In this document: positions 1,834 to 51,975 of the stretch, piece by piece
Numbering within the stretch: position 1 is the first letter of the stretch
Layout: every line of letters begins with the position of its first letter
IMG/VR virus record: IMGVR_UViG_3300015360_000006
Location: 1-52,003 of that record
Strand: one strand, 5' to 3'
Origin: a virus
Lineage: Duplodnaviria > Caudoviricetes
Length of the DNA: 52,003 nt
The notes under the pieces: generated by a model
Told to the model about the DNA's origin: nothing
Seen by the model: the letters and a program-made list of their open reading frames with translations, nothing else
Databases searched by the model: none
Made by a program: the position numbers and the translations under genes

Positions 1834-1840
1834 TATTGAT

Positions 1841-2718: not shown

Positions 2719-2729
2719 GAAAGTAAATT

Positions 2730-4202: not shown

Positions 4203-4212
4203 TACCTATTTT

Positions 4213-4462: not shown

Positions 4463-4492
4463 CAAAACAAAACAAAACAAAACAAAACAAAA
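4463..4492 (+). repeat. (CAAAA)6 tandem repeat directly before the SSB start codon
   Basis: Six CAAAA units ending in the A of ATG; no Shine-Dalgarno. Confidence 0.9.
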
Positions 4493-4995: not shown

Positions 4996-5017
4996 GCCAG
5001 CAAGACACAGACAGTAT

Positions 5018-5056
5018 GAGGCGCGAGCTCCACAAGGGCTCGCGCCTTTCTCTTTT
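5018..5056 (+). terminator. Intrinsic terminator-like hairpin after SSB
   Basis: GAGGCGCGAGCTC-cacaa-GGGCTCGCGCCTT followed by TCTCTTTT. Confidence 0.7.
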
Positions 5057-5060
5057 CAAT

Positions 5061-7183: not shown

Positions 7184-7201
7184 ACCAGAAGGAAAAAACA
7201 A

Positions 7202-7846
7202 ATGATAACAGTTAAAGCAAGTGACATCCTGAATGTTATTGCTCTCGAAGGTGTGGTAATCCGTCATGACGGATGTTCCGATACTGACACAGCCCTCAGC
7301 ATCAACAGATCGGGCCGTATAATGTACATGGCATCCAAGCTGTCCGATCGTGGAGTGTGCTCAATCATTACAACCAGGCAGTGGGGGGTCTTTATGATCG
7401 AACTCCATGATGAGTACGTACAAGCTGATAACAACAGGATGCTTGTGTGGGATGAAGAGGCAATTACGAGGTTGGAAAACTGGAAATACATTGTCAAGGA
7501 GGAAGACATCGACGGGTTTGCATCCAAAATTAAGAAGCCCAAAGCAGCTGTGGCTAACCTGAAACCCACGGAGGTTAACATCTGCGAAGCTGCACGCTTG
7601 GCACTCAACGCTCAGTACAATCTTAACATCCCAGAGCTTGGAGATCATGAAGACTGCGATGGAGGGATTGATGTATACGGATTCGATGGCGGTCAGCTTT
7701 CAGTCTGCCTTGATAAGTGCCAGATTGAGTTGTACCTCTTCACCCCGGGCGAAGGTGATGTCGTCCACAATTACACCTTCGCACTGGGCGATATCGTCAA
7801 GACCTACGACAACCGAAAGCATTTGATCTCTCCGGGTCAGGAGTAG
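7202..7846 (+). CDS. Hypothetical protein
   Basis: 214-aa ORF with AGAAGGA upstream. Confidence 0.75.
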   Translation: MITVKASDILNVIALEGVVIRHDGCSDTDTALSINRSGRIMYMASKLSDRGVCSIITTRQWGVFMIELHDEYVQADNNRMLVWDEEAITRLENWKYIVKEEDIDGFASKIKKPKAAVANLKPTEVNICEAARLALNAQYNLNIPELGDHEDCDGGIDVYGFDGGQLSVCLDKCQIELYLFTPGEGDVVHNYTFALGDIVKTYDNRKHLISPGQE

Positions 7847-7922
7847 ATCTCACAATAGGCGAACCCGCTGCGGCGGGCCTTCCGCTTAGCTACCACAAGT
7901 TGGTGGTTAAGGAGAAGGCAAC

Positions 7923-8171
7923 ATGAATTACGAATACATAGACACAAATGATCCTGTCTTGCAGTTGACCGAAGCTCAAAAAGCTAGCTGGCGAAAGAAC
8001 GACAGTTACAATGAGAAGATGGTTGTAGTATACCAGTACATCAGGTTTCTTGGTTACAGGAATAATGATTATAAGGACGAATGGTTCAATTGCGACAAAG
8101 ATCCGGTTGACATTGATGCCGTTGAGGTAGAGATCGAACATCACTTCGACAACGTATCCAAGGAAAGTTAA
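7923..8171 (+). CDS. Hypothetical acidic protein
   Basis: 82-aa ORF with an AAGGAG RBS. Confidence 0.7.
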   Translation: MNYEYIDTNDPVLQLTEAQKASWRKNDSYNEKMVVVYQYIRFLGYRNNDYKDEWFNCDKDPVDIDAVEVEIEHHFDNVSKES

Positions 8172-8181
8172 CAAACAAATT

Positions 8182-8895
8182 ATGAACGTAAGACTTATCT
8201 CGGTAACGCAACCTTGCCCGTCGGACACAGGGCCAAAGACGGCGGAAGAACTTATCGTGCACATTGCGCGAGTGTCTAATCCGGCCAACCAAAACAACTT
8301 TGAAACCTCGGCGCGCCTGCTTGGTTACTGCATTCGCAAAGGCCATTGGTCAATCTTCGAGTCAGTCTCAATGACTGTCGAGATTGAAACCTCACGCGCC
8401 ATCGGTACGCAAATCTTGCGGCACCGTAGCTTCACGTTCCAAGAGTTCAGCCAAAGGTACAGCAGTAGTGATAAGCTGTGGGAAGGCTACTATGGCAAGA
8501 CCAATGATGACTTCTTCGAAAAGGTTCAGTTGCGTGAGAAGGGCTCAACCAACAGGCAAGGTAGCCTTGACAGGCAGCACGCCGACGCCATGGAACTTAA
8601 CGCTAAAGTTCGCGAACAACTGGCTAGTTGCTTTAGCTTGTACGCATCCCTTTTGCGAGATGGTGTTGCGCTAGAGTGCGCTCGAATGGTGCTGCCTTTG
8701 TGCACCTCTACTCGCATTTACATGACAGGCTCAGTGAGATCGTGGATCCACTATCTTGCACAGCGTCTGGCCGAAGGTACGCAGCTGGAACATCGCGAAG
8801 TGGCAACGCGAGTTGCCTCCATTTTCAAGGCTCAGTTTCCGCTGGTGGGCGAAGCTTGCCGCACTGAAGTCATCCCGGCGCACACTACGTTGTAA
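8182..8895 (+). CDS. thyX: Flavin-dependent thymidylate synthase
   Basis: GHWSIFE, ThyX motif RHRSFTFQEFSQRY, ECARMVLP, TQLEHR. Confidence 0.95.
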   Translation: MNVRLISVTQPCPSDTGPKTAEELIVHIARVSNPANQNNFETSARLLGYCIRKGHWSIFESVSMTVEIETSRAIGTQILRHRSFTFQEFSQRYSSSDKLWEGYYGKTNDDFFEKVQLREKGSTNRQGSLDRQHADAMELNAKVREQLASCFSLYASLLRDGVALECARMVLPLCTSTRIYMTGSVRSWIHYLAQRLAEGTQLEHREVATRVASIFKAQFPLVGEACRTEVIPAHTTL

Positions 8896-8896
8896 T

Positions 8897-9364
8897 ATGA
8901 TTGAACTAACTAAAGGTAACTTACTGGAGGCGCGTGTGGATGCGCAAGTAAACGCAGTGAACTGCGTGGGCGTCATGGGCGCAGGCATCGCACTGCAATT
9001 CAAGCAGGCTTACCCTCAGATGTTCCACGCCTACAAGATGGTGTGCAAAGCAGGCGAGGTGAAGCTTGGCAAGATGCAGGTGTTTTACCTAGGTGGGCCA
9101 CTGTTCGGCTACCCGCACTGGATAATCAATTTCCCGACCAAGCGTCACTGGCGCGCGGTTAGTCGGTTGGATGAAATTGAGGCTGGACTCAAGGATTTGG
9201 TGGCAACCGTGAAGCAGTTGAACATCCGCTCCATCGCCATTCCGGCACTCGGTTGTGGCAACGGCGGATTGGATTGGGGCGACGTGCTTCCTCGCATTGA
9301 GTGGGCGTTTGTGGAATTGCCTGATGTTCGAGTGATGCTGTTCTCACCGGAGGCAAAGCGATGA
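8897..9364 (+). CDS. Macrodomain ADP-ribosylhydrolase, DarG/TARG1-like
   Basis: GNLL...VNAVNCVGVMGAGIALQFK, IINFPTKRHW, IPALGCGNGGLDW; true start ATG 8897. Confidence 0.9.
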   Translation: MIELTKGNLLEARVDAQVNAVNCVGVMGAGIALQFKQAYPQMFHAYKMVCKAGEVKLGKMQVFYLGGPLFGYPHWIINFPTKRHWRAVSRLDEIEAGLKDLVATVKQLNIRSIAIPALGCGNGGLDWGDVLPRIEWAFVELPDVRVMLFSPEAKR

Positions 9365-9618
9365 GTAAACTTGAGCGATGGCAGAAGCCATTCAAAAACC
9401 TACCGAAGCAGGCTAGATTCATCGCCGTGGACATCCTTTACGGCAGATGTTACTGGTACGCTCGTCGGCCTAAACCGCTTGGGTATTGCTGGGGATTTAC
9501 TAAGCCCAGCACCTTGAAGTATTCACGTCTTGGCTTTATTAAACATCTCAAAGAACCGCGTGACTGGCGAACTGCCATCCGGGCGGTGCAACCCAGTGAA
9601 CGTGTTAAAACCAAATAA
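9361..9618 (+). CDS. Hypothetical basic protein
   Basis: ATGA overlap; P..A..IAVD..G...WY...P pattern. Confidence 0.65.
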   Translation: MSKLERWQKPFKNLPKQARFIAVDILYGRCYWYARRPKPLGYCWGFTKPSTLKYSRLGFIKHLKEPRDWRTAIRAVQPSERVKTK

Positions 9619-9633
9619 ACTTACTAACTCCCT

Positions 9634-9852
9634 ATGACAATCGAACAAGAGTTTCTCCCAGGCATTCGCACTTGGCTGATGTCAAACAATGTCCCGGTAG
9701 AGTGCAAACTATATCAAGTGTGCATTGTACTCACACAAGACAAAGCCACAAGTGTGCGCTACACACAACGCCAAGTAGCTTTTCCGTCACTTGATTTCCA
9801 TGTAACCGATATTGTTTACCTCACCAAACAGGAACTCCTAAACTCCCTATGA
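9634..9852 (+). CDS. Hypothetical protein
   Basis: 72-aa ORF in the operon. Confidence 0.6.
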   Translation: MTIEQEFLPGIRTWLMSNNVPVECKLYQVCIVLTQDKATSVRYTQRQVAFPSLDFHVTDIVYLTKQELLNSL

Positions 9853-9950
9853 CATCCATGACACCTGACCCAATGTGGTACTGCGGCCTCGCCCTCCTAA
9901 CTATGATCTGCGTCATCCTCTGGCGACGCATCGCTAGGAGGGGCAAATGA
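9849..9950 (+). CDS. Small single-TM peptide (33 aa)
   Basis: ATGA overlaps at both ends; MTSMTPDPMWYCGLALLTMICVILWRRIARRGK. Confidence 0.55.
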   Translation: MTSMTPDPMWYCGLALLTMICVILWRRIARRGK

Positions 9951-10360
9951 AATGCCCTGAGTGTGGAAGCGCCGGAATGAGTATTGTGGGTCAAATTCTC
10001 TTCAGTTGCGGGTCGACCATGCGCAAGGGAGCGACCGTTATAGATGTCTACGGAACTAGGTGCCACCTAGGGGCTATGCAAAAGCTGCGGACGAAACTTG
10101 TCAAGTTGTCCGATTACAGCCGCAACCTGAGAATAAGCAATGAAACTGCCACTAGGGCTATAGCGTCATTGGAAGCTGAGCTAAACACACACCCCACAGA
10201 CCTTGTTTCAATGGTCCGAATCGCTAACGAACGACATGAGGAAATTATGGAACTAAAAGCCAAACTCACCAACGCCGGTTCACACGCAGTCTCAATGGGC
10301 CAACGCATCCATGCACTCAAAGCAGAGGTAGTCAAGTTAAAGCAATCCAAAGAAATCTAA
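9947..10360 (+). CDS. Zn-ribbon plus coiled-coil hypothetical protein
   Basis: MKCPECGS...FSCGS...C then a coiled coil; AGGAGG RBS. Confidence 0.7.
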   Translation: MKCPECGSAGMSIVGQILFSCGSTMRKGATVIDVYGTRCHLGAMQKLRTKLVKLSDYSRNLRISNETATRAIASLEAELNTHPTDLVSMVRIANERHEEIMELKAKLTNAGSHAVSMGQRIHALKAEVVKLKQSKEI

Positions 10361-10891
10361 ATGAAATTCAACGAATACATTAAACTCGCACTGCGCACTG
10401 AGATCAAACTCAAAGACAATAAGGAGCGCAGGTTGCACGCGGTGCTGGGTCTCGCATCCGAGATCAACGAAGTACTCCACAGTATCACGAAATCAAATCG
10501 TATTGAGGAGATTGGTGATGTTGCGTGGTTCACCGCACTGTTGTGCGACTCGATCAACTACCCTGAGAGCTCAATGGATCAGCCAATCAGCGAACACTTT
10601 ACAGTGGACGAAGGTAATCTGACGTACATTGTCAGCCATTTGTGTGACGCAGTAAAGCGTGAATACATTTACGGTAAGGTACACGATAGGTGTCCTTACT
10701 CCATTGGCTGCTCAGATCTTCTTGGCTGGTTGCGAGTTTATGCAGCATTGGCAAACACTTCGCTTGAGGCCATCTGCGATCTCAACATCGAAAAGCTCCA
10801 ACTTCGCTACCCAACTCACTTCACAAACAAGGCATCAGACCTGCGCGACACGGAAGCTGAGGGAGCAATCTTCACTAAGCATTATGAATGA
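10361..10891 (+). CDS. MazG-like nucleotide pyrophosphohydrolase
   Basis: LGLASEINEV...EEIGDVAWF, NIEKLQLRYP. Confidence 0.85.
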   Translation: MKFNEYIKLALRTEIKLKDNKERRLHAVLGLASEINEVLHSITKSNRIEEIGDVAWFTALLCDSINYPESSMDQPISEHFTVDEGNLTYIVSHLCDAVKREYIYGKVHDRCPYSIGCSDLLGWLRVYAALANTSLEAICDLNIEKLQLRYPTHFTNKASDLRDTEAEGAIFTKHYE

Positions 10892-11066
10892 GCAAATGAG
10901 TTTGTTCGGAGGAGATGACAATCTACCTCCGGGTGTAACGCAGAAGGATCTGGACAACCACGGCGACGGGAAGGTTACCTGCACAGGTTGTCTTCGCTCG
11001 CGCTATCAGCACGATATGTTCGACGGACTGTGCCGCTGGTGTATCCCAATGTCAGAAAGGGACTAA
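10884..11066 (+). CDS. Small Zn-finger protein (60 aa)
   Basis: NLPPGVT..D..., CTGC...CRWC; coupled to both neighbours. Confidence 0.65.
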   Translation: MNEQMSLFGGDDNLPPGVTQKDLDNHGDGKVTCTGCLRSRYQHDMFDGLCRWCIPMSERD

Positions 11067-12052
11067 TGCACACTAATAGATTAAGGGCCATCACATGTTA
11101 CAAGCAAGCTGGCACACGCAGCTTCCGCCTCAGCGCGACGCAGTACTTCAATACCTACGGACTTAATCTACAAAATCCGGACAAAGAAACTCTGGATCAT
11201 CTGGAAGCCCCGGCCGGCCACGTCATAGTGCAAGCAGATCAAAGCGGCGCCGAAGCTTTGATTGTAGCTTATGACTCCGCGCCGGGGCGTTATCGTGCTC
11301 TGTTTGAAAACGGAGTCAAGCCGCACACTTACCTAGCGATGCAAATCTTTGCATCCTATTTTGGTCTGGCCGCCGACTCTCCGTTCTTGAACGAAGAAGT
11401 GGCAGAGTTTACTAAGCTGCCAAACTGGGCCGAGTTGCACAAGCGCATCAAAAAGTCGGGCAAGCCTTACGACATTGGCAAGCGGACGGCACACGGATCT
11501 TCTTACAAGATGGGTCCAATCACATTCCGTAATGCAAACATAAAGCAATCAAAGGGCAAGCTTGTATTGTCCATTGCAGAATGTCGTGCATTTCTGGATA
11601 TGTTCAAGCGTTTGTTTCCGGAAGTAGTTGCTTGGCAGGACAGTGTTGAAACTACACTTAGACGCGAGCGAAAGCTTGTCAACCACTTCGGCTACACAAG
11701 ATTGTTTACACGCGAGCTTACTGATTCTTATGTTCGCGAGGCAATCTCTTGGCGCCCGCAGTCCACGGTGGGTTGCATAACCCATCAAGCCATTCGTCGC
11801 GCACGCGTAGCGGGATATGCCACGTGCTCCAACAAGCATGATTCGGCCGCCGTAATGGTAACTTGCGAAGATGCAAGCACGGCAGCTGCTTTCATGCAGA
11901 ACGCTATGAGGGTAAAACTTCAAGGCCACGATTGCGAATTCACCATGAACTCAGAAGTACAGATTGGCTCGAATTGGGGAGCATACGATGCTGACACCAA
12001 TCCAACTGGTATGAGGGACTCTAATGAGTGGATCAAGGCATCCAATGAGTAA
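11066..12052 (+). CDS. polA: DNA polymerase A, C-terminal catalytic subunit (palm/fingers)
   Basis: QAGTRSFRLS, NLQNP, motif A ADQSGAE, motif B KRTAHGSSY, PQSTVG, motif C HDS; TAATG coupling. Confidence 0.9.
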   Translation: MHTNRLRAITCYKQAGTRSFRLSATQYFNTYGLNLQNPDKETLDHLEAPAGHVIVQADQSGAEALIVAYDSAPGRYRALFENGVKPHTYLAMQIFASYFGLAADSPFLNEEVAEFTKLPNWAELHKRIKKSGKPYDIGKRTAHGSSYKMGPITFRNANIKQSKGKLVLSIAECRAFLDMFKRLFPEVVAWQDSVETTLRRERKLVNHFGYTRLFTRELTDSYVREAISWRPQSTVGCITHQAIRRARVAGYATCSNKHDSAAVMVTCEDASTAAAFMQNAMRVKLQGHDCEFTMNSEVQIGSNWGAYDADTNPTGMRDSNEWIKASNE

Positions 12053-12269
12053 CCAACGAATTAAGCTGTCCATCACTACCGACTACTACGCCTTCATTGC
12101 GCGTTACGGATTGAAGCCCAATGGACTCTTAGTTTCCAGCAACGCCGAGCTAGCTCTCAATTCATTGGGACTAAAGCCCGGTGACATTTACATCGGCATG
12201 CGCATCGTCTCTGCGGAATTCGCAGAGGGTGATACAATCGTGGCTCTCCTTTCTACGAGTAATGAGTAA
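12045..12269 (+). CDS. Hypothetical protein
   Basis: ATGAGTAA overlaps at both ends; 74 aa. Confidence 0.65.
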   Translation: MSNQRIKLSITTDYYAFIARYGLKPNGLLVSSNAELALNSLGLKPGDIYIGMRIVSAEFAEGDTIVALLSTSNE

Positions 12270-13449
12270 CTTGGATCTATGGAAACTCTACACAAAACGA
12301 CTTCATGCACCGCGGCAATTTCTTGATGCAGCATTTTACTACACGATAGGCGCCGCACTTGAGCGCCGTGTATGGCTGGGCGCCGGCGGTGGCACAGTGT
12401 ATCCGAATCAATACATACTATTTTGCGCAGACGCGGGCGTCGGCAAAGGCTTGGCAACCGGTGCCGCCGAGCATGTCCTAGATTCTCTTGTCGATCCAAA
12501 GAATCCAACGCGTCCATTCATTACCAAAGGTCCGGACTCTGGATCTTATGAGGCACTGATTCATCGTCTGGCAGATTCGACCAGAAGCACTCGCTACATG
12601 AATGGCACTGTTGTAATGCCCTACATGTATGCGAGTTTGCGTTTGGAGCTAGACGAGCTAATGAGCTTCTTCCATGTAGAAGCTAACAACGCTGTTAAGT
12701 TCTTCTGCTCGATGTGGAGTGGCGTAGATTTTGACCGCGACACATTAAGCCGCGGCCACAAGCCACTCAGCCATCCGCTGCTTAACTTTCTGGCGGGCAC
12801 AACGCCGCAAGATATGAAGAAGCTACAACGATGCGACATCATGGGCACAGGCTTCGATCGTCGCATCATAATCATTTACGCAGACAAGAACGAGTTCGAG
12901 CAATTCTTGGTTCGAGACTTCTTGCCTGAGGAATTAGAAGCCGGATTGAAACTATGCAATCATGTGGAAAGGTTGAGCAAGGTATGCGGTAAACTAACAT
13001 TCTCCAGCGAAGCCAAGATTCTCGGCGAGCAGACTTGGATGAACTTGGCCAAGCGCAACGTGAATAATCACAAGTCGCTGCAATCATACAATGCCAACAA
13101 ATCACCTCAGTGGCAGAAGTATGCGATTGCAATGCACTTTGCAGAAGGTGATCCGGAAGAGCGGTTGCGCACGCCGATCGCAGCCAGCACATTAGAGCAA
13201 GCCATTACCAAGCTTCAATCGTACGAGCTATTCCGGCACTTCGCGTACGACCAGACGGACATCAATGAGTTGGCTATCGTGGCCCGCGAACTTAATAAGT
13301 GGTTGTCACGTGAAGGATCAAAAACACAGGCAGAGATTGCAAAAGCGTACTACGGTGCAGTAACACTGAAGCAACTCGACGAGGTGCTTCAATACTTGAT
13401 ACTGTCAGGCGGGATCAGTCAAAAGGAAGAAACATTCACAGCAATATAA
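12262..13449 (+). CDS. P-loop/AAA+ putative replicative helicase (DUF3987-like) with C-terminal winged helix
   Basis: Walker A ADAGVGKG, Walker B LELDEL, LAGTTP, GFDRR; C-terminal helix-turn-helix-like end. Confidence 0.65.
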   Translation: MSNLDLWKLYTKRLHAPRQFLDAAFYYTIGAALERRVWLGAGGGTVYPNQYILFCADAGVGKGLATGAAEHVLDSLVDPKNPTRPFITKGPDSGSYEALIHRLADSTRSTRYMNGTVVMPYMYASLRLELDELMSFFHVEANNAVKFFCSMWSGVDFDRDTLSRGHKPLSHPLLNFLAGTTPQDMKKLQRCDIMGTGFDRRIIIIYADKNEFEQFLVRDFLPEELEAGLKLCNHVERLSKVCGKLTFSSEAKILGEQTWMNLAKRNVNNHKSLQSYNANKSPQWQKYAIAMHFAEGDPEERLRTPIAASTLEQAITKLQSYELFRHFAYDQTDINELAIVARELNKWLSREGSKTQAEIAKAYYGAVTLKQLDEVLQYLILSGGISQKEETFTAI

Positions 13450-13452
13450 ATC

Positions 13453-13908
13453 ATGAGTAAAGTACTATCAAATAACAACGCGCAAAGGCGTAAGGAGCTC
13501 TTACGTCAAGCTGAGCAGTGCGTGTGCACTGATCGCAATTTAACTTACGGCGACGCGGAAGATAACTTCACAAGCATCGCCAAGTATTGGTCAGTGTATC
13601 TTGGCGTGCCAGTTACTGCCTTGGATGTAGGATCGTTGATGATCCTGTTCAAACTTGCACGCACTCAAAATATCCCAACACATCAAGACAGTTGGGTAGA
13701 CTTGATCGGTTATGCAACTTGTGCGGCAGGGATTGTTTTGAAACCTGTAATTTCTACAACGGGCCTTTTACATCAAGAGCCGCCGGGGCCGTCGTCGCCA
13801 GGCAGTTCAGGTACAACCAATCCCTTTTTAAATACACCCGGTTCAACGGGACTTTGGGGGCACGGCTCAATGCTAAATCAAGATCCGCGCCTTTTGCCCA
13901 CAAAATGA
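13453..13908 (+). CDS. DUF6378-type all-alpha nucleotide hydrolase-like protein
   Basis: DRNLTYGDAEDNFTSIAKYW...DV..MILFKLAR...DSWVDLIGYA. Confidence 0.75.
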   Translation: MSKVLSNNNAQRRKELLRQAEQCVCTDRNLTYGDAEDNFTSIAKYWSVYLGVPVTALDVGSLMILFKLARTQNIPTHQDSWVDLIGYATCAAGIVLKPVISTTGLLHQEPPGPSSPGSSGTTNPFLNTPGSTGLWGHGSMLNQDPRLLPTK

Positions 13909-14024
13909 CTGAACTATCATTGTCCGTCACACTGCGCTACGCAGTGATTGCACTGCTTCCACTGATCGGAGTGGTCATTGGAGCTTGGGTAGTTTTGGTA
14001 GCAAGCAAACGAAACAAGGAATAG
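13905..14024 (+). CDS. Small single-TM protein (39 aa)
   Basis: ATGA overlap; hydrophobic helix with a basic tail. Confidence 0.55.
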   Translation: MTELSLSVTLRYAVIALLPLIGVVIGAWVVLVASKRNKE

Positions 14025-39033: not shown

Positions 39034-40856
39034 TTGTAAATCAGGTTGTAAAATCCACTAACGATTAGTTTGCGCTCGACCATCGGATCAAAGTGTTCGG
39101 GCTCTTTGTAATTATCGAAAGCTCGATTCTCGTAATCTTGCACGAAGTGCGCCATACGTTCCTCCTTTGAGCCTTCGCTTACATTGTTTTCGGCGAGCAT
39201 TTCGGAAAGATCGTAGATAGAGTAAGCCAGAACGTAAGCGTCGGCGCAGTCTGGTGAAAATCCTAGGCGACCTTTCGCCTTCTTTTTGTCTTCCAGTTGA
39301 AGCTTCTGCTTCTCATTGGTGAAGAACTTACGCGTGGTAATTTGCTTCTTCCAGCGATCGTAGCATTCAAACTTGTGTGGCGGAATAATTTTACCCAGCT
39401 CAATCATTCGGCCAACTCGGAAGTACATCTCAGCGCCTATGTTCGCGTAATTCTCAGTGTTGAAAGCCGCCGATTGGTTGTTAACTCCGCGTATAGGATA
39501 GCCAGCTTCTTGCACGCGCCGCAAAATTGGCGCACCGATTCCGCCCATATCACCTGAGACATCTTCGTACTCGCACTTGAAATTTGACTTGCCGATCAAG
39601 AGTTGCTTGACAATCCAAGCGTGCAACTTGTTAGGAGAAGATGTAGTAATGACTGCGTGGTACAAGGGCTCATTGCCATGAACAATCCAGAACTCGGATA
39701 GATCAACGCCCAATCCAACGTCGAGCCCACCGGCCGGGCGCTGTCCCATTGTTTTCGCCGGCGGCGGAATGTAATCCAATCTCTCACCCGGAATGATGAC
39801 CTCTTCTGCGGATTCGTAGAACTCCGCCAAAATGCCTGTGCGATAGGGCGCAGAGTTCTCGCCGTGGTTCAGCCTAGTTTGCTCGATCGCCGCGGGCGAA
39901 ATGTTGGGACACTCAAACGCAGTGACACGGCGCGAGAAAGGAGTGCCCAGTTCGCACTTGGTAAACGAAGAACGCTCTACAGACTTGTAGAACTGACCGC
40001 ACCGCGCGCCGGGAGAAGATACCTGCAACCAATGAGAGTAACCATAGAAGCGCGAGAAAGCTTCGTACAGCGTATCTTTAATAGACTTAGCTTCACCGAT
40101 TACCACCATCATCTTCGATTCAGGGACTTCATAGAATGGGTGATAGCCTTCAACCTTTGATGGCTCGTCCGTACAGAATGCCCGCAATTCACTGCCCGTG
40201 TAATTGCACTTGATTGAGAATTCTTTTATGTCAAATACATCATCCTCGTGCAACGCATTGATTGTTTCGCACAGAGTTGAGATAGGCTTGAAGGTGTGCT
40301 CCTTAAGCTGGATATGCGACTCCGACGTGATGACTACGCGCGAACGCAGGTAGCGCATCATGAACCAAACTACTGTCGGCGTAATGATGTAAGTATCCTT
40401 ACCCGAAGAGTTGGCCGCCACCAGATTGTAAATGAATGGATTCTCTTTCGTCGGATCCTGCCACTCGCTGCGCGGCAGGCCTTCCAAATTCAAATCACCG
40501 CCCATGCGATGCTGTTCCTCTTGCTGCCATTCGTAGGGCTTAAGATGTGGATTGTAAGTTTTGAACAACACCAAAGGTGTCGGAAAGTCAAAGGTCTTAG
40601 GATTCGCGGGCCATGAGAATTTAGAGGACCGCGACGGCGCCGGGCGGTCCGCCCCCTCGGGTTCCCTGTCTTCCGGCGCGGCAGCGCCGGCCCGCGTCTT
40701 AAGCCCTGGAGAAGCGGGTACAGATTTGGGAAACTCGGCACCAAAGCCAGTGTCCACGCCATCGAACGCCGGATCGATTGCCGCCGAAGCGTGGGTAGAT
40801 TCCAGCGCCGCGCGCACCCGCAAAGCATTGAGCTGCTCTTCAGTAAGTTTAGGCAT
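39030..40856 (-). CDS. terL: Terminase large subunit
   Basis: PYEWQ, AANSSGKD, EGYH, VVIGEA, SSP, ILAEF, GLDVG, SPDCADA. Confidence 0.88.
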   Translation of the reverse strand: MPKLTEEQLNALRVRAALESTHASAAIDPAFDGVDTGFGAEFPKSVPASPGLKTRAGAAAPEDREPEGADRPAPSRSSKFSWPANPKTFDFPTPLVLFKTYNPHLKPYEWQQEEQHRMGGDLNLEGLPRSEWQDPTKENPFIYNLVAANSSGKDTYIITPTVVWFMMRYLRSRVVITSESHIQLKEHTFKPISTLCETINALHEDDVFDIKEFSIKCNYTGSELRAFCTDEPSKVEGYHPFYEVPESKMMVVIGEAKSIKDTLYEAFSRFYGYSHWLQVSSPGARCGQFYKSVERSSFTKCELGTPFSRRVTAFECPNISPAAIEQTRLNHGENSAPYRTGILAEFYESAEEVIIPGERLDYIPPPAKTMGQRPAGGLDVGLGVDLSEFWIVHGNEPLYHAVITTSSPNKLHAWIVKQLLIGKSNFKCEYEDVSGDMGGIGAPILRRVQEAGYPIRGVNNQSAAFNTENYANIGAEMYFRVGRMIELGKIIPPHKFECYDRWKKQITTRKFFTNEKQKLQLEDKKKAKGRLGFSPDCADAYVLAYSIYDLSEMLAENNVSEGSKEERMAHFVQDYENRAFDNYKEPEHFDPMVERKLIVSGFYNLIYK

Positions 40857-41235
40857 CGGTCGAAGGAGTTACATTCAGTGCAAGCTTGTGGCGAATGATT
40901 TTGGGCACCGCATTTTGCGCACATTCCAGCGCCGCAATTAATTGCAAAGACGCCAGCGCATTGATTTCGCGCGTCCGCGCCCGCGCATCATTGCGACCTT
41001 TTACTTCGTCCACCAACCACGTAAGGGCACTCATGCGCGTTTTGACCGCATTCTCTTTCCCAAAAGCGATGTGCTTCATTTCGAGAAGAATGGCCGGCAA
41101 GTCTTCAACGCCCGGCACGCCCAGCATCACGCGCACAGATTGCACTGATAAGTCTAAACCCGCCGCAATGTCCTCCGCCGAAAGAGAAGGGTCGCTCCGA
41201 GATAGTGCCAGAACTTGATCGTAGCCTGATGACAT
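40849..41235 (-). CDS. Terminase small subunit-like HTH protein
   Basis: N-terminal HTH LSAEDIAAGLDLSVQSVR; first late gene; start ATG 41235. Confidence 0.65.
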   Translation of the reverse strand: MSSGYDQVLALSRSDPSLSAEDIAAGLDLSVQSVRVMLGVPGVEDLPAILLEMKHIAFGKENAVKTRMSALTWLVDEVKGRNDARARTREINALASLQLIAALECAQNAVPKIIRHKLALNVTPSTDA

Positions 41236-41246
41236 GATTCGTTGGT

Positions 41247-41263
41247 TGCAGAGAGTGTGCCTT
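41247..41263 (-). promoter_or_regulatory. Sigma54 (-24/-12) late promoter
   Basis: Minus strand AAGGCACA-CTCT-CTGC-A (GG-N10-GC); predicted +1 near 41236, next to the terS ATG. Confidence 0.65.
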
Positions 41264-41377
41264 TGGATGGTTGTCAATTAGTTTATAGAGTTTCTAAAAT
41301 TTCAAAAATTTAAAAATTTAAGAGAATGTCTAGTTGTATTTCGCACTTCGTTTCTGGGGCTCCGTCATCACAAGCCT

Positions 41378-41414
41378 CTCGCCAAGCCTACCCTCGCCAT
41401 CCCATCCCTCGCCA
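41378..41414. repeat. Three CTCGCCA repeats with a 15-bp period
   Basis: Copies at 41378, 41393 and 41408. Confidence 0.8.
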
Positions 41415-41454
41415 CCCTTGTTCTCTCCCGACAGAAATGACAGGAATGATTCAA

Positions 41455-41700
41455 ATTGAACGTTCAATAGGGACTTAACGACTTAGGTTATATAGAATTG
41501 AATTATATATAGGTATAAGTGTGTTTATATATAAGTATAGGTATGTTATATTTATATAGGTATGTTTATATAAGTAAATAAATATATATATATAGGCATA
41601 TTAGTATACATTAATATATCAATTGGAAACGACATATAGATTAAAAAATACTTATATAATTCAACCTATATCCAAACTTTGAACCTATACCCTAGAATCT
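41455..41700. other. Very AT-rich non-coding region: candidate origin or packaging site
   Basis: Palindrome ATTGAACGTTCAAT (41455-41468), TA runs, repeated TATAGG(T/C)AT and inverted ACCTATA copies. Confidence 0.5.
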
Positions 41701-41809
41701 TCGACCAAGCGGCAAACCAAGGGAAAAAATCTTTTCCCCTTAAACCCTTGGTAATCAATAGCTTGGGGTGCCCAAAGGAGTGCCTTCTGAAAATAGTTCA
41801 AAGAAAGGG

Positions 41810-41838
41810 TTGCGTCCCTTGGCAGGATCTGCTAACCT
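41810..41838 (+). promoter_or_regulatory. Sigma70-type early promoter
   Basis: TTGCGT-N17-TAACCT with an extended -10 TG, 9 nt before the first early ATG. Confidence 0.6.
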
Positions 41839-41847
41839 ATAGGTGCA

Positions 41848-42033
41848 ATGAAGATCAACACTAACGAAACGGTAACGGCCAACGTGGCCGAAGATGTAAA
41901 GGAGACCCTGCGTCTCCTAAACGAAGCCATTGCGTTGCTAGACAAGGCAAAGTGTTACATGGTGACGGAAGAATCCGACCAACTGGAAGACGTGATTGAC
42001 GCACTTCGGAAAACCATTCACGAAATCAGGTAA
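41848..42033 (+). CDS. First early gene, small helical protein
   Basis: 61 aa, nearly leaderless after the sigma70 promoter. Confidence 0.7.
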   Translation: MKINTNETVTANVAEDVKETLRLLNEAIALLDKAKCYMVTEESDQLEDVIDALRKTIHEIR

Positions 42034-42043
42034 ACAAAGGGGA

Positions 42044-42330
42044 CTGGCCCCTTCTCAAGGTCCCCATGCGGGACTTTGAGAAGGTACCAGAAGGTACCTA
42101 GTGCCGTGACTCCCACGGACAAGATCGGAGGTTAGCAATCAAAGGATGCTGACTTCTACGAGCCGCAATAACGGCTCGCAACCGATCATTGAAATCTAGG
42201 AATCGGAAGTCGGAAATGATGCCTTGCTTTCGTAGCAAGATACTTTTCGGCCGAACAATTCCGAAGTAGGTGAATGGATTTCCTTCTATGCCTAGCGTTC
42301 CCATGTCGGGAGCGCGGACATAGAACAAGG
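42044..42330 (+). ncRNA. Highly structured intergenic RNA, segment 1
   Basis: Serial hairpins and a multibranch junction (GATCGG/CCGATC), CTTGCT-ttcg-TAGCAAG; no sizeable + strand ORF. Confidence 0.5.
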
Positions 42331-42838
42331 AAAAAAAAATCATGAGCAAAAACACGGAAGAAACCACGGCAGAAGAAACCACGGCCGCGGCAGAAGTTCT
42401 GGCGAGCGCGGAAGTCCGTGCCCGGCAGGCTCTGCCCCGTTTCCAAACGGAAACGGCTCTGCTAGTTGGACAGAAAGATGACGCAACCAGTGTTCAAGTG
42501 GTGAAGGCAATCGATGCCTTGCGTAGTACACTGGCAAAGGCTGCTAGTCGGTGCGCAGAGTCGGGAACGCTTTCTACAAGCCAGAAAAGCAAAGCAGGAG
42601 AGCGGAAATCGTCCCTGAAAGGGGCGAAGAGCTCCGGAGAAGATTCGGTCCCGATGGCCATTCAGGCCACAGTCACCCTCTTTGGCAAGGTTGCCAAAGA
42701 GACCGGCGGAGAGATCGACCGGATTCGGTTAGACTCCGAGTCAGCGTTGGCAATTCGGATTCAAGATTGGATCCGCGGGTTTTAAACCCAACATTCTAAC
42801 CCGCCTGAAAGGGCGGGCATAGAAGGAAATCCATTCAC
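42270..42838. repeat. 23-bp perfect inverted repeat (42270-42292 / 42816-42838) flanking one gene
   Basis: GTGAATGGATTTCCTTCTATGCC ... GGCATAGAAGGAAATCCATTCAC. Confidence 0.9.
42342..42785 (+). CDS. Early hypothetical protein (147 aa)
   Basis: AAGGA RBS; EETTA repeat at the N-terminus. Confidence 0.75.
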   Translation: MSKNTEETTAEETTAAAEVLASAEVRARQALPRFQTETALLVGQKDDATSVQVVKAIDALRSTLAKAASRCAESGTLSTSQKSKAGERKSSLKGAKSSGEDSVPMAIQATVTLFGKVAKETGGEIDRIRLDSESALAIRIQDWIRGF

Positions 42839-43100
42839 GGCGCGACAACGCAAAGTCTCCGGTTCTAGTCGCGCTTTAGAAATTCACCCTGACAAGGTGC
42901 AAGCGGAAACTCTGGGCAACGCGCCAAGAGGAAAAGCCGAAGTACTTCGGGCAACGCAGACAATATGCTATTCGCCCGGATGAAATCAGAAATGCAAGCT
43001 AAGGCTTGCAAGACTGGCTTTCCCCTTTAAGCGCATCAAATCTACCCCAGCGCGTTCTTTCTCAAGCACTTAGCCATATGCTAAGTGCTTGGGAAAGGAT
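42794..43100 (+). ncRNA. Highly structured intergenic RNA, segment 2
   Basis: Stems GCGCGAC/GTCGCGC, TGCAAGC/GCTTGCA, CGGGC/GCCCG, and a long terminal hairpin at 43054-43100. Confidence 0.5.
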
Positions 43101-43105
43101 ACGAA

Positions 43106-43312
43106 ATGACAGGCCATGAAGTGCTTGCCCGTCTTAGGGCAAGCGCGTCAATCGGCCGTCACGCTACGTTCAACCTTGAACGTAGCGTGACGGTCAGGGG
43201 CTTCGTACAGATTACGAAGCCTGTCAGTCGGCGAGCCGCCAAGTCGGTTGGCTCGCGCACCTTGACTCTCAAAGTCAAGAACTGGCAAATCACAGCCGCG
43301 CACTTTAACTAA
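43106..43312 (+). CDS. Early small basic protein
   Basis: GAAAGGA RBS before ATG 43106. Confidence 0.65.
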   Translation: MTGHEVLARLRASASIGRHATFNLERSVTVRGFVQITKPVSRRAAKSVGSRTLTLKVKNWQITAAHFN

Positions 43313-43327
43313 GTGCGCGGTCTTTTT
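43294..43327 (+). terminator. Early intrinsic terminator
   Basis: GCCGCGCACTT-taact-AAGTGCGCGGT then CTTTTT. Confidence 0.7.
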
Positions 43328-43379
43328 GCGTCCTTTCAAGTCTGCTCTCAAGTTTGAGGGCAGATAGGAAAGGAACAAA

Positions 43380-43856
43380 ATGCCCTCAAAAATCAGCACG
43401 TGGAACAATCAGCAAGGAAGCCGTGGGCGCTCGGCGCTCGCGGTGTTGGTGACTCCTGATGGAAATGTCCATCAGTTTCGTGGGGAATCGATTCCCCAAG
43501 TGTGTCACTCAGTGGTGACGGATCGCGAGAAGAAGGGCGCGTGGAGTAACTGCACGTTCGCCATCACGCATAATGACCAGACGAAATTTGTGTCGTGGCG
43601 GCAGGATTGGGACACCGGGCGCGACTGGCCCGGCTTGAGCTGGGAAACCAACATTGCGTGGCTTCAGGCGCTTGCACCGCAGGCAACCGAGGTCGGATTC
43701 CGGGCGTACATCGCACGGGAGCATCCCAAGGTTAGAACACGCTTGGACGAGTTCTATATCGCTGTAGGAGAGTTTGATCTTCCGGCGGTTCCGGTGATCC
43801 CAGAGATTCCCATGGAGATTCCGGCGGTCTCAGGATTCCGGAACACCGTCATGTAA
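43380..43856 (+). CDS. Early hypothetical protein
   Basis: GAAAGGA RBS; 158 aa. Confidence 0.75.
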   Translation: MPSKISTWNNQQGSRGRSALAVLVTPDGNVHQFRGESIPQVCHSVVTDREKKGAWSNCTFAITHNDQTKFVSWRQDWDTGRDWPGLSWETNIAWLQALAPQATEVGFRAYIAREHPKVRTRLDEFYIAVGEFDLPAVPVIPEIPMEIPAVSGFRNTVM

Positions 43857-43877
43857 AAAAAACAAACCAACAAACCA

Positions 43878-44076
43878 ATGACAGAACGGGAAGTAGTCCA
43901 AGCACTTGTCATCATGGGACGCGGCTTATAAGTCTATCGCCCGCAAAGCACCGCCTTTGCGAGCGGATGTTTTCAATGCATTCATCCACACGTACTATCC
44001 GGAACATGCTGAAAAGTTGGACTGGTACGACAATGCGGTCGCAGAGTTCGAAAACCCACTGAAAAGAAAGGAATAA
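43878..44076 (+). pseudogene. Frameshifted or TTG-started paralogue of the C-terminal half of 43380-43856
   Basis: The ATG 43878 frame stops after 17 aa; the +1 frame (43906-44076) reads SSWDAAYKSIARKAP...FNAFI...LDWYDNAVAEFENP. Confidence 0.55.
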
Positions 44077-44077
44077 A

Positions 44078-44398
44078 ATGACAGATCAATGGACGCAGGA
44101 AGAAGCGGTGCAACTTTGCACCGAAATCGAGAAAATCTGCACCAAGTATGGGTGCCACGTGGCACTGACCGGTGGACTGCTGTACAAGGCCGGTCCACGG
44201 AAGGATTGCGACCTGCTATTCTACAGGATCAGGCAATGGGATGAAATTGACATGGAAGGTCTGTGGGCTGGACTGTCAATAATTAGAATCAAACAAACAA
44301 GCGGATTTGGTTGGTGCTACAAGGCAACGTACAGAGGGAAGAAGATTGACTTCTTCTTCCCAGAGGAAGAAGGAGAAGAATATGTCAAACATGAATGA
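44078..44398 (+). CDS. Minimal nucleotidyltransferase-like protein (Pol beta fold)
   Basis: VALTGG.......KDCD plus a distal IDFF; GAAAGGA RBS. Confidence 0.65.
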   Translation: MTDQWTQEEAVQLCTEIEKICTKYGCHVALTGGLLYKAGPRKDCDLLFYRIRQWDEIDMEGLWAGLSIIRIKQTSGFGWCYKATYRGKKIDFFFPEEEGEEYVKHE

Positions 44399-44759
44399 AC
44401 AAAAAGAAAGCGTAGAATACCTGCGCGTCTACGCCCTCTTAGTCAACGCTCGCGAAAACTCACGAGAGGCCAACATCGCGCTCGCCAATTCCAATTGGAT
44501 GAGAAACGATTTGCAGAAAAGAATTGCCGAGCTCAAAACTTGTGCCGACAGTCTGCTGTCGGAATACCTACGCCTCTGTGAAATGTTAACCATGACTGAG
44601 GAACAGGTGAAAAAGGATAACAGCGCACACGTCGCCGCTCGAGCGATTGAAAACGATCTTCAAAAGAGAATTGCTGAGCTCACATCTTGTGATGAGAACG
44701 GCGAAAGCAACTACAACGACCACGAAGTGGAAAACGACAACAACAACAACAAAACATGA
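44382..44759 (+). CDS. Coiled-coil hypothetical protein
   Basis: NDLQKRIAEL occurs twice; start 44382 or 44391. Confidence 0.65.
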   Translation: MSNMNEQKESVEYLRVYALLVNARENSREANIALANSNWMRNDLQKRIAELKTCADSLLSEYLRLCEMLTMTEEQVKKDNSAHVAARAIENDLQKRIAELTSCDENGESNYNDHEVENDNNNNKT

Positions 44760-51126: not shown

Positions 51127-51975
51127 ATGCCCGTAACAATTAAGACTGGACACAAGCTGCCCTATGCAGTAGCAAGCGAGGCGTTCAAGACACGAGCGCG
51201 CATGACACGGGACGGCAGACTCGTTGAAAACAGTTACATCACGGACGATCCGTTCACGCTCAGCCAGCTTAGCTTGATTGATCAGGTGCGTGATCTCAAC
51301 ATGTCGGTCCTGATAACAGGTGAGTCGGGCACCGGCAAAGATATTATGGCCAAGCGACTCGGCCATCGGCACACGCTGGATGCTAGCGGGTTGCACACTA
51401 TGGCCAAGTACATCTCCGTCAACTGCGCAGGCATCACGGATTCACTGTTCGAGTCCGAGATGTTTGGCCACATCAAGGGATCATTCACCGGTGCACTGCG
51501 CGATCGCGCTGGATTCTTTCAAGCGGCGCACGGCGGCACGTTATTCCTTGACGAGATCGGCGATCTGCCTTTGCACCAGCAAGCTAAGTTGCTGCGTGTG
51601 CTAGAGAACAAAACGGTTACGCCAGTCGGCAGCACCGAGGAGATTCATGTGTCGCCTCGCATTGTGTGTGCTACCAACAAGAACTTAAGGCAAGCTATTA
51701 TTGCCGGAGAGTTTCGAGAGGACCTCTATTACCGCATCGCACAAGTTGTGGTATCAACCATCCCGTTACGCATGAGGTCGACGGATGTTGTGCTCATTGC
51801 CAACGAGATCATTGCGACGAATGACTGGACGCCGTTGGCTTCCAACGAGACCATTCCTACATGGGCCTACTCGCGCGGCAATGTTCGCCGCTTGTACGCT
51901 TGCATTCAACTTCGCGAACTCGGCCTTCAATGGGATGAGATCGCCGAACAATGGGACTGGAGTGCTAATGCCTAA
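51127..51975 (+). CDS. Sigma54-dependent transcriptional activator (bEBP), AAA+ domain only
   Basis: VLITGESGTGKD, VNCA, ESEMFGHIKGSFTGA, GGTLFLDEIG, QAKLLRVLE, ATN, FREDLYYRI, GNVR; no receiver domain and no C-terminal HTH. Confidence 0.95.
   Translation: MPVTIKTGHKLPYAVASEAFKTRARMTRDGRLVENSYITDDPFTLSQLSLIDQVRDLNMSVLITGESGTGKDIMAKRLGHRHTLDASGLHTMAKYISVNCAGITDSLFESEMFGHIKGSFTGALRDRAGFFQAAHGGTLFLDEIGDLPLHQQAKLLRVLENKTVTPVGSTEEIHVSPRIVCATNKNLRQAIIAGEFREDLYYRIAQVVVSTIPLRMRSTDVVLIANEIIATNDWTPLASNETIPTWAYSRGNVRRLYACIQLRELGLQWDEIAEQWDWSANA

What the first reader, a model, noticed from the sequence alone, without database searches (positions are those of the whole stretch)
42270..42838. 23-bp perfect inverted repeat loops out an early gene and competes with local hairpins
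Seen: 42270-42292 and 42816-42838 are exact reverse complements enclosing the 147-aa gene. Each arm also takes part in a local hairpin (42284-42325, next to the RBS; 42794-42824, after the stop), so the local and long-range pairings are mutually exclusive. Inference: an RNA conformational switch or RNase III stem that excises or stabilises this mRNA, or an ORF inserted into a loop of a larger RNA. DNA inversion is less likely because no recombinase is encoded.
Basis: partly seen in the sequence, partly recalled or inferred. Interest (0 to 1): 0.7.

Follow-up and report, generated by a model that had tools for sequence, protein, structure and literature searches.

The report
Gene-bracketing RNA stem in phage early operon
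A perfect 23-base inverted repeat on either side of a small phage gene is most likely a conserved long-range RNA stem that exposes the gene's ribosome-binding site only once the whole gene has been transcribed, and that probably also marks the message for cutting by a double-strand RNase.

Summary
Bases 42270-42292 and 42816-42838 are exact reverse complements: none is expected by chance, and it is the longest perfect inverted repeat in this complete 52-kb phage genome. They bracket a real 147-aa gene.

A close relative (L005) keeps all 23 pairs through three substitutions: one G-C to A-U double change and one A-U to G-U change. A distant relative (L012) has an unrelated 168-aa gene at the same place. 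That gene is bracketed by a 22-24-nt stem of unrelated sequence with the same geometry.

In all three genomes the 5' arm can instead pair locally with the translation-initiation region, and the 3' arm carries a copy of that region. Predicted exposure of the ribosome-binding site rises from 0.32 to 0.80 in the window, and from 0.18 to 0.89 in L005, once the 3' arm is present.

The flanking leader and trailer are unusually structured (z -7.2 and -5.5), show covariation, and are better conserved than the ORF. The phage encodes no serine or tyrosine recombinase, the repeat has no target-site duplication, and no other copies were found.

My best reading is a cis-acting 5'/3'-UTR RNA switch that is also a likely RNase III substrate. 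No cleavage, RNA-end or expression data could be obtained. I rate it a new variant of a known kind, of moderate interest.

The parts
42270..42292 (+). 5' arm of the long-range stem. Bases 42279-42292 also act as the anti-RBS strand of the local hairpin.
42816..42838 (+). 3' arm of the long-range stem. It carries an RBS-like copy (GGCAUAGAAGGAAAU) that competes with the true RBS region for the 5' arm.
42279..42333 (+). Alternative local 5' hairpin (-28.5 kcal/mol). UUUCCU/UCUAUG/CC pairs with AGGAAA/CAUAGA/GG and so masks the RBS.
   Evidence: mean unpaired probability over 42326-42332 is 0.31-0.33 without the 3' arm
42327..42333 (+). Purine-rich ribosome-binding stretch AAGGAAA of the 147-aa ORF
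   Evidence: Similar motifs precede the neighbouring early genes, but only 11 of 43 gene starts in the genome have one.
42342..42785 (+). 147-aa ORF of unknown function, enclosed by the stem
42794..42824 (+). Alternative local 3' hairpin (UUCUA / CCCGCCU-GAAA-GGGCGGG / UAGAA). It has no U tract.
   Evidence: not listed among the terminator-like sites
42034..42269 (+). Structured leader with several hairpins that covary between the window and L005
   Evidence: z = -7.16; covariation; its first 107 nt are duplicated in L005
42839..43105 (+). Structured, highly conserved trailer (91% identity to L005, against 66% for the ORF). It ends in a 21-bp hairpin, whose core inverted repeat is 43057-43097, that contains the RBS of the next gene.
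43106..43312 (+). Conserved 68-aa ORF downstream. It contains an 18-bp perfect hairpin at 43156-43193.
43295..43321 (+). Intrinsic-terminator-like hairpin with a U tract; probable end of the transcription unit
   Evidence: conserved in L005
42008..42022 (+). Partial third copy of the 3' arm (14 of 15 bases match 42825-42839) at the end of the upstream 61-aa ORF. It could pair with 42270-42283. It is absent from L005.

Best explanation
The two arms pair in the plus-strand early transcript, as a 5'-UTR/3'-UTR stem that closes the 147-aa ORF into a loop.

While the gene is being transcribed, the 5' arm folds locally onto the purine-rich ribosome-binding stretch (hairpin 42279-42333) and masks it. 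Once the polymerase has made the 3' arm, about 30 nt past the stop codon, that arm can invade. It would start at the 9-nt segment 42270-42278, which the local hairpin leaves free, and form the more stable 23-bp helix. This releases the ribosome-binding site. The 3' arm therefore acts as an anti-anti-RBS and couples translation to completion of the message.

The resulting perfect helix of about two turns is a textbook substrate for host RNase III. It is therefore probably also cut. A cut would release the ORF from the structured leader and trailer, leaving its ends base-paired.

Shown here: the repeat, its conservation and covariation, the analogous stem in L012, and the predicted thermodynamic switch. 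Inferred: that the region is transcribed as one RNA, the kinetic order of folding, the effect on translation, and any cleavage.
For: 1. Window against L005. Three substitutions fall in the arms and all 23 pairs survive: one G-C to A-U double change and one A-U to G-U change (helix 10). A simulation of three random substitutions keeps all 23 pairs with P = 0.009-0.047.

2. L012. This is a distant relative (68-aa protein 59% identical, small-terminase-like protein 43%). Its syntenic ORF is unrelated (BLASTP E = 9.5; hhalign probability 0.6%) and has 22 homologues of its own. It is bracketed by arms 1839-1860 and 2435-2456, which match at 20 of 22 positions, or over 24 nt with up to 2 mismatches. 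The spacing is similar: 41 nt before the AUG and 26 nt after the stop, against 49 and 30 in the window.

3. Stem stability. Duplex energies are -39.7, -37.3 and -36.1 kcal/mol. In the window, pair probability is 0.95 or more at 21 of 23 pairs (0.74 and 0.50 at the two innermost) and 23 of 23 pairs are in the MFE, in contexts of 591-1483 nt. In L005, 23 of 23 pairs are in the MFE in contexts of 571 and 1286 nt. In L012, 16 of 22 are.

4. Unmasking. In the window, mean unpaired probability over 42326-42332 is 0.31-0.33 for transcripts ending at 42400-42815 and 0.80 for those ending at 42838 or later. In L005 it rises from 0.18 to 0.89.

5. Same logic in L012. Without the 3' arm, the 5' arm pairs with codons 3-5 (1908-1916) at P = 0.76-0.97 in a short context and 0.31-0.40 in a long one. 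With the 3' arm this falls to 0.00. AGCAAACT occurs only at 1908 and 2446 in the locus.

6. The surrounding non-coding RNA is under structural selection. Twelve pairs changed on both sides keep pairing, against 0-3 in slid controls, and 97.6% of cells are paired. In the leader, 10 of 10 double changes keep the pair; in the ORF, used as a control, 6 of 14 do.

7. Unusual folding. z is -7.16 for the leader, -5.52 for the trailer and -4.81 for the ORF. Thirty-six control segments elsewhere in the genome have median -0.67 and minimum -3.78.

8. The only helices of 18 bp or more that are perfect or near-perfect in the genome cluster here: the 23-bp stem, the 21-bp hairpin with core 43057-43097, and 43156-43193.

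9. The virtual translation across the L012 5' arm and its hairpin (nt 1839-1889) is invariant at 15 of 17 residues in 4 of 4 sequences. The 18 residues before it have 2 invariant.
Against: There are no RNA data. No RNA run is listed, and the one DNA run's contigs do not cover 41730-43240. One transcript, cleavage and any translational effect are therefore all inferred.

Only three genomes could be compared, and two of them are close relatives.

In L012 the two mismatches are C.A on the plus strand; they would be G.U on the minus strand.

Single-sided transitions in predicted helices do not favour the plus strand. By my tally, 6 give G.U on the plus strand and 5 give A.C.

The covariation structure was derived from the window's own MFE, which inflates the counts.

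Only 11 of 43 gene starts have an SD-like motif. The host may rely little on SD pairing, and the A-rich spacer stays single-stranded even in the masked state, so masking may be leaky.

In L012 the gain in accessibility is modest: unpaired probability at the AUG rises from 0.27 to 0.45.

Concerted evolution of DNA repeats could also produce the one double change.

The host, and therefore its RNase III, is unknown.
Confidence: 0.6

Rival explanations
1. A processing and stability stem only. The 23-bp helix is an RNase III site, or an end-protecting clamp, like the stems that bracket rRNAs or the sites between T7 early genes. The overlap with the RBS-masking hairpin would then be incidental and would not regulate translation.
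For: The stem length (22-24 bp, about two helical turns) is kept in both lineages. That is longer than needed merely to out-compete a 14-bp local pairing. Other long helices cluster in the same transcript. The low use of SD-like motifs (11 of 43) weakens the masking argument. The substrate rule for RNase III and the T7 and rRNA precedents are recalled knowledge, not taken from a call.
Against: The alternative pairing of the 5' arm with the initiation region recurs in L012 with a different sequence. The 3' arm carries a copy of the masked segment in both lineages. Neither is expected for a pure cleavage site. No cleavage data exist.
Confidence: 0.15
2. The leader and trailer are two halves of one large structured RNA, and the ORF is cargo inserted in a loop closed by the 23-bp stem, as with ORFs in peripheral loops of group I introns.
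For: The non-coding flanks are better conserved than the ORF (leader 82%, trailer 91%, ORF 66%) and are strongly structured. Unrelated ORFs occupy the loop in the window and in L012.
Against: No Rfam family matches; the only 2 hits at E <= 1 lie far below their gathering scores. No leader-trailer pairing other than the 23-bp stem is supported. The L012 leader and trailer share only a short motif with the window's. The leader's first 107 nt occur on their own as a second copy in L005, which suggests a modular intergenic element rather than half of one RNA.
Confidence: 0.07
3. A DNA-level element: an invertible segment, the terminal inverted repeats of a small mobile cassette, or paired protein-binding sites.
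For: Perfect inverted repeats flank a gene-sized segment. The enclosed gene differs between lineages, which looks cassette-like. Concerted evolution of DNA repeats could mimic the one compensatory change. The L012 mismatches are compatible with either strand.
Against: The complete genome has no serine or tyrosine recombinase: 0 matches at E <= 1, while the same searches ring in 13 of 14 and 14 of 14 control genomes. The orientation is the same in 3 of 3 genomes. There is no target-site duplication; the flanks are GAAGTAG and GGCGCGA. There are no further copies in the window and none in the viral contig collection (records at or very near the window's genome may be left out of that collection). 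The sequence on both sides of the arms is itself conserved and structured.
Confidence: 0.08
4. The structured RNA is on the minus strand (an antisense transcript), or the repeat is a functionless remnant.
For: The L012 arm mismatches would be G.U pairs on the minus strand (and sequence reading). A terminator-like hairpin lies on the minus strand at 43010-42993.
Against: The L005 A-to-G change gives G.U only on the plus strand. The RBS and AUG logic makes sense only on the plus strand. Conservation of the architecture with unrelated sequence in L012 argues against a remnant.
Confidence: 0.05

Closest known systems
5'-UTR/3'-UTR pairing in bacterial mRNAs: S. aureus icaR (PMC3868564, abstract read) and B. 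subtilis hbs (PMC5737220, abstract read)
   Same: Complementary segments in the two UTRs of one mRNA pair over the whole ORF. In icaR the duplex affects translation initiation and makes an RNase III substrate. In hbs a 14-bp 5'/3' pairing modulates RNase cleavage.
   Different: In icaR the 3'-UTR pairs with the SD itself and represses. Here the 3' arm pairs with the anti-RBS strand and is predicted to activate. The stem here is longer (23 bp, perfect), lies in a phage polycistronic early region, and recurs around an unrelated ORF in a relative.
hok mRNA of the hok/sok system: 5'-3' fold-back pairing with metastable 5' hairpins (recalled, no call)
   Same: A long-range 5'-3' pairing competes with local hairpins that form first during transcription, and the choice governs translatability.
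   Different: In hok the 3' element locks the mRNA in an inactive state until it is trimmed. The ORF is a membrane toxin of about 50 aa with an antisense RNA. Here the ORF is a 147-aa hydrophilic protein, no antisense RNA is known, and the 3' element is predicted to activate.
RNase III processing sites of T7 early mRNAs and the stems that bracket 16S and 23S rRNA (recalled, no call)
   Same: Double-stranded stems of about 20 bp or more in a polycistronic phage early transcript. The rRNA stems are long-range and enclose the released RNA.
   Different: T7 sites are local hairpins between genes with internal loops. A long-range stem enclosing a single protein-coding gene is the rRNA geometry, not the T7 one. 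Cleavage is untested here.

Membership tests
RNase III processing stem | Double-stranded RNA helix of about 20-22 bp or more | tested here: met
   23 of 23 Watson-Crick pairs in the window; 22 Watson-Crick plus 1 G.U in L005; 20 of 22 in L012
RNase III processing stem | Cleavage by RNase III with staggered ends in both strands | not testable with these tools
   No RNA run is listed. The host is unknown, and the phage encodes no RNase III of its own.
5'-UTR/3'-UTR interacting mRNA (icaR/hbs type) | Complementarity between the 5'-UTR and 3'-UTR of the same mRNA, conserved in relatives | tested here: met
   That both arms lie on one transcript is inferred.
5'-UTR/3'-UTR interacting mRNA (icaR/hbs type) | The pairing changes access to the initiation region or to an RNase site | tested here: inconclusive
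   Thermodynamic prediction only: 0.32 to 0.80 in the window, 0.18 to 0.89 in L005, and a weaker effect in L012.
hok/sok-type fold-back mRNA | Small hydrophobic toxin ORF with a cis-antisense RNA | tested here: not met
   The ORF is 147 aa and hydrophilic. No family matches and no antisense gene is evident.
Site-specific DNA inversion switch (Hin/Gin or Fim type) | A serine or tyrosine recombinase encoded with the element | tested here: not met
   PF00239 and PF00589 give 0 matches at E <= 1 in the complete genome, and the control genomes ring.
Site-specific DNA inversion switch (Hin/Gin or Fim type) | Both orientations are observed | tested here: inconclusive
   The orientation is the same in 3 of 3 genomes. 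The read test was uninformative.
TIR-bounded mobile element (MITE or IS) | Target-site duplication and multiple copies | tested here: not met
   The flanks are not direct repeats. The window holds only the two arms and the viral contig collection holds 0 other copies.
Any described RNA family (Rfam 15), including group I/II introns and large ornate RNAs | A match at the family's gathering score | tested here: not met
   Across 40800-44500 there are only 2 hits at E <= 1, both far below their gathering scores.

The most novel reading that the evidence does not exclude
The stem is a portable 'clasp' that travels with, or is re-invented around, whichever gene sits first in this phage lineage's structured early operon. 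It would act as a transcription-completion checkpoint: the ribosome-binding site is licensed only when the 3' arm emerges. The same helix would then be cut by a dsRNA nuclease, releasing a message with paired ends. That would be a 3'-UTR-driven activation switch that is independent of the enclosed gene's identity. My one literature search did not turn up such a mechanism for phage early genes.
Probability: 0.25. Interest if true: 0.65.

Novelty: new variant of a known kind. Interest (0 to 1): 0.45.

Why it matters
If the reading holds, this is a phage example of whole-ORF 5'/3'-UTR pairing in which the 3' end activates translation rather than repressing it. Comparative evidence shows the architecture is kept while both the stem sequence and the enclosed gene are replaced.

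It would give a compact, testable model for co-transcriptional RNA switching by strand displacement. It would also help explain how uncultured phages time and insulate their first early genes.

It also flags a 1.35-kb early module (42034-43379). Its non-coding RNA is better conserved and far more structured than its genes, and it lies in a phage that carries its own sigma-54 and activator.

Tried and rejected
**Searches for more relatives with DNA**
- blastn of 41300-43900 against GenBank phages: no match.
- The exact arm sequence in viral contigs: 0 matches.
- The 147-aa protein and the downstream 158-aa protein in viral contigs: no relatives.
- The terminase gave only fragments that stop short of the module.
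- The small-terminase alignment gave no new loci.
- P0005 and P0006 (40% and 35% homologues): nothing in viral contigs. P0005 gave nothing in genome contigs. P0006 gave L015, a 36-residue match inside the antisense frame of an unrelated gene, which I rejected as spurious.
- tblastn and blastn against phages with P0001, P0005 and the L012 region: no match.
- The four-sequence alignment A5 was too divergent for the locus finder.
- As a result, the DNA behind P0002, P0005, P0006 and the 22 homologues of the L012 ORF could not be examined.

**Reads**
- One DNA run holds the stretch; no RNA holder is listed.
- Its contigs cover only 41693-41729 and 43240-43900, so nothing can be said about inversion, variants or RNA ends.

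**Function of the enclosed protein**
- No Pfam or PHROG family.
- No usable hit in the protein atlas.
- The AlphaFold model has pLDDT 50, so I ran no fold search.

**Other checks**
- RNAduplex energy between 80-nt flanks did not discriminate this ORF from others. I replaced it with the longest complementary run.
- The sigma-54 promoter consensus is not enriched: 32 matches against 36 expected.
- The covariance model of the leader element finds only its three training copies.

**Literature**
- One search (terms: bacteriophage, RNase III, early mRNA, long-range, translation) found 60 papers holding at least 4 of the 5 terms; I saw 12 in the listing. None describes a phage early gene bracketed this way. 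This is only a listing-level check.
- A first search was rejected for a syntax error and was not re-sent.
- Supplementary files were not consulted.

Full report
**Context.** The window is a complete virus record of 52,003 bp with direct terminal repeats. Structural genes, including a large terminase, lie on the minus strand from about 14 kb to 41.3 kb. An AT-rich repeat region follows at 41.3-41.85 kb. From 41848 onward, and continuing through bases 1-14000, small genes and replication genes lie on the plus strand. The finding therefore sits at the start of the presumed early, plus-strand arm. The phage is far from any cultured phage: the best terminase match is 27-28% identical, to Akkermansia phages, and blastn finds nothing.

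**The observation.** Arms 42270-42292 and 42816-42838 are 23/23 complementary. A search allowing up to 3 mismatches finds only these two sites, and none in 100 shuffles. No other long-range inverted repeat in the genome is perfect or longer than 18 nt. Among 235 mechanically called ORFs, this is the only one whose 100-nt flanks share a long complementary run: 23 nt, against a next best of 11 and a median of 6. The enclosed 147-aa ORF is a real gene. It has homologues at 72%, 40% and 35% identity. A fourth hit (P0007, 498 aa, matched over 34 residues) is not counted as a homologue. Substitutions against L005 are biased to the third codon position, 83 of 151. It has no Pfam or PHROG family, and its predicted structure is of low confidence (pLDDT 50). 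The 5' one is larger than stated, 42279-42333, and pairs 14 nt of the 5' arm with CAUAGA and AGGAAA, which includes the purine-rich stretch 9 nt upstream of the AUG.

**The close relative, L005.** This is a metagenome locus whose terminase is 98% identical. It carries the same module of about 1.35 kb (window 42034-43379 = L005 3700-5032) between different flanking genes. Identity by segment is leader 82%, 5' arm 91%, ORF 66%, 3' arm 96%, trailer 91% and 68-aa ORF 86.5%. The non-coding parts are therefore better conserved than the enclosed gene. The arms carry three substitutions:
- G to A at arm position 8, together with C to U at its partner. This is a compensatory double change.
- A to G at arm position 5, which gives G.U on the plus strand.
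All 23 pairs are kept. Three random substitutions would keep all pairs with P of about 0.01-0.05. On its own this is suggestive but not strong.

**The distant relative, L012.** This was found through the downstream 68-aa protein (59% identity). It has the same gene order, with a small-terminase-like protein 43% identical. At the syntenic place it has a 168-aa ORF (1902-2408). That ORF is not detectably related to the 147-aa family and has 22 homologues of its own. It is bracketed by arms 1839-1860 and 2435-2456, whose sequence is unrelated to the window's. They match at 20 of 22 positions, or over 24 nt with up to 2 mismatches, and the duplex energy is -36.1 kcal/mol. This is the longest inverted repeat in 9.4 kb of that contig. 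As in the window, the inner 6-7 nt of each arm are shared with a local hairpin (1854-1882 and 2413-2440). The arms sit at similar distances from the start and stop codons. Retention of the architecture while both the sequence and the cargo gene changed is the strongest comparative evidence that the stem itself is selected.

In three further relatives, gene callers extended the ORF upstream. In those, the virtual translation across the 5' arm and its hairpin is nearly invariant (15 of 17 residues in 4 of 4 sequences), while the 18 residues before it have only 2 invariant. This is indirect evidence that the nucleotides there are conserved.

**Folding.** At equilibrium the long stem dominates in every context tried.
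- Window: pair probability is 0.95 or more at 21 of 23 pairs (0.74 and 0.50 at the two innermost), and 23 of 23 pairs are in the MFE, in contexts of 591-1483 nt.
- L005: 23 of 23 pairs are in the MFE, in contexts of 571 and 1286 nt.
- L012: 16 of 22 pairs are in the MFE, with the inner pairs exchanging with the local hairpins.

Truncation experiments in silico show the switch.
- Window: the ribosome-binding stretch has mean unpaired probability 0.31-0.33 in transcripts ending anywhere from 42400 to 42815. It jumps to 0.80 once the transcript reaches 42838.
- L005: the same measure goes from 0.18 to 0.89.
- L012: the 5' arm pairs instead with codons 3-5 (AGCAAACUG, 1908-1916) at P = 0.76-0.97 in a short context, or 0.31-0.40 in a longer one. 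This pairing falls to 0.00 when the 3' arm is present. The octamer AGCAAACT occurs only at 1908 and in the 3' arm, at 2446.

So in both lineages the 5' arm is an anti-initiation-region strand, and the 3' arm carries a copy of the masked segment. In the local state the first 9 nt of the window's 5' arm are free. This would serve as a toehold for strand displacement; the kinetics are inferred.

**The surroundings.**
- The leader, the trailer and even the ORF fold far better than shuffles (z = -7.16, -5.52 and -4.81). Thirty-six control segments of 240 nt elsewhere in the genome have median -0.67 and minimum -3.78.
- I counted the non-ORF helices of the window's MFE on the two-sequence alignment. 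Twelve pairs changed on both sides still pair, against 0-3 when partners are slid by 1-3 columns, and 97.6% of cells are paired. In the leader 10 of 10 double changes keep the pair; in the ORF, used as a control, 6 of 14 do. The caveat is that the structure comes from one of the two sequences.
- The first 107 nt of the leader form a hairpin cluster that starts right after the upstream stop codon. It occurs twice in L005, each time after a stop codon, with covariation between the copies. A covariance model finds no further copies.
- The RBS of the downstream 68-aa gene lies inside a 21-bp hairpin. L012 has an analogous RBS-containing hairpin before its 51-aa ORF (sequence read).
- The only helices of 18 bp or more that are perfect or near-perfect in the genome all lie within 42270-43193.

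**DNA-level rivals.**
- The complete genome has no serine or tyrosine recombinase.
- The enclosed segment has the same orientation in all three genomes.
- There is no target-site duplication, and no further copy in the window or the viral collection.
- The sequences immediately outside the arms are themselves conserved structured RNA.
- The read-based inversion test was uninformative.

**Points against my reading.**
- The two L012 mismatches are C.A on the plus strand; they would be G.U on the minus strand.
- Single-sided transitions in predicted helices do not favour the plus strand: 6 against 5, by my tally.
- SD-like motifs precede only 11 of 43 genes, so RBS masking may matter less in this host.
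- No transcript, cleavage or expression data exist.

**Mechanism and comparison.** I conclude that the repeat is a cis-acting long-range RNA stem in the early transcript. It switches with local hairpins to unmask the initiation region after the ORF has been transcribed. It also forms a 23-bp duplex that is a likely RNase III substrate; the substrate length rule is recalled knowledge.

The closest described systems are the 5'/3'-UTR pairings of icaR and hbs (abstracts read). Others, recalled rather than read, are the fold-back pairing of hok mRNA, the T7 early RNase III sites and the rRNA-bracketing stems. This case differs in three ways. The 3' element is predicted to activate rather than repress. 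The perfect stem of about two turns encloses a protein-coding gene in a phage operon. The design recurs around an unrelated gene. It is not a member of any Rfam family.

I rate it a new variant of a known kind. My confidence is about 0.75 that it is a functional RNA stem and about 0.6 for the switch-plus-processing mechanism as stated.

Noticed in passing
window 2730-4196 (+) and 51127-51975 (+): The phage encodes a full-length sigma-54 factor, with its activator-interacting, core-binding and DNA-binding domains. It also encodes a 282-aa sigma-54 activator AAA+ protein with no detected DNA-binding domain. The canonical -24/-12 consensus is not enriched in the genome: 32 matches against 36 expected. 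The listing of one literature search showed no paper on phage-encoded sigma-54.
   Followed up: partly
window 41500-41700; L005 2690-2860: An AT-rich intergenic region (GC 0.42) lies between the divergent structural and early arms. It has four copies of a 30-nt direct repeat (TATAGGTATAAGTGTG...) and is conserved in L005. It could be a promoter array or an origin.
   Followed up: no
L005 3240-3345 and 3697-3800; window 42029-42135: A 107-nt cluster of four hairpins starts immediately after a stop codon (TAAACAAAGGGG...). It is present twice in L005 and once in the window, and the copies covary. It may be a processing or insulating element between early genes.
   Followed up: partly
window 43057-43097 (hairpin core) and 43156-43193: A 21-bp hairpin contains the RBS of the 68-aa gene, and an 18-bp perfect hairpin lies inside that gene. 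L012 has an analogous RBS-containing hairpin at about 2795-2844, before a 51-aa ORF (sequence read).
   Followed up: partly
window 42008-42022: A partial third copy of the 3' arm (14 of 15 bases) lies at the end of the upstream 61-aa ORF. It could pair with the first 14 nt of the 5' arm. It is absent from L005.
   Followed up: partly
window 5016-6416 and 10988-12052 (+): Family A DNA polymerase appears split into two ORFs about 4.5 kb apart: one with the exonuclease and the N-terminal polymerase part, the other with the C-terminal polymerase part. Ligase-like, ThyX and other genes lie between them.
   Followed up: no
window 42962-42971; L005 about 4620-4630; L012 about 2694-2703: The motif CGAAAUCAGA (UGAAAUCAGA in the window), followed by a GC-rich hairpin, is shared by the trailers of all three phages, although the L012 trailer is otherwise dissimilar.
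   Followed up: no
L005 3309-3701 and 5033-5374: In L005 the module is flanked by two paralogous small genes (130 and 113 aa, sharing motifs such as NP.GW.FETS.PRTV). These are absent from the window, which shows mosaic exchange around the module.
   Followed up: no
whole window: Only 11 of 43 inspected gene starts have an SD-like motif. Many have A-rich or CA-repeat leaders, which suggests a host that uses SD pairing little.
   Followed up: partly
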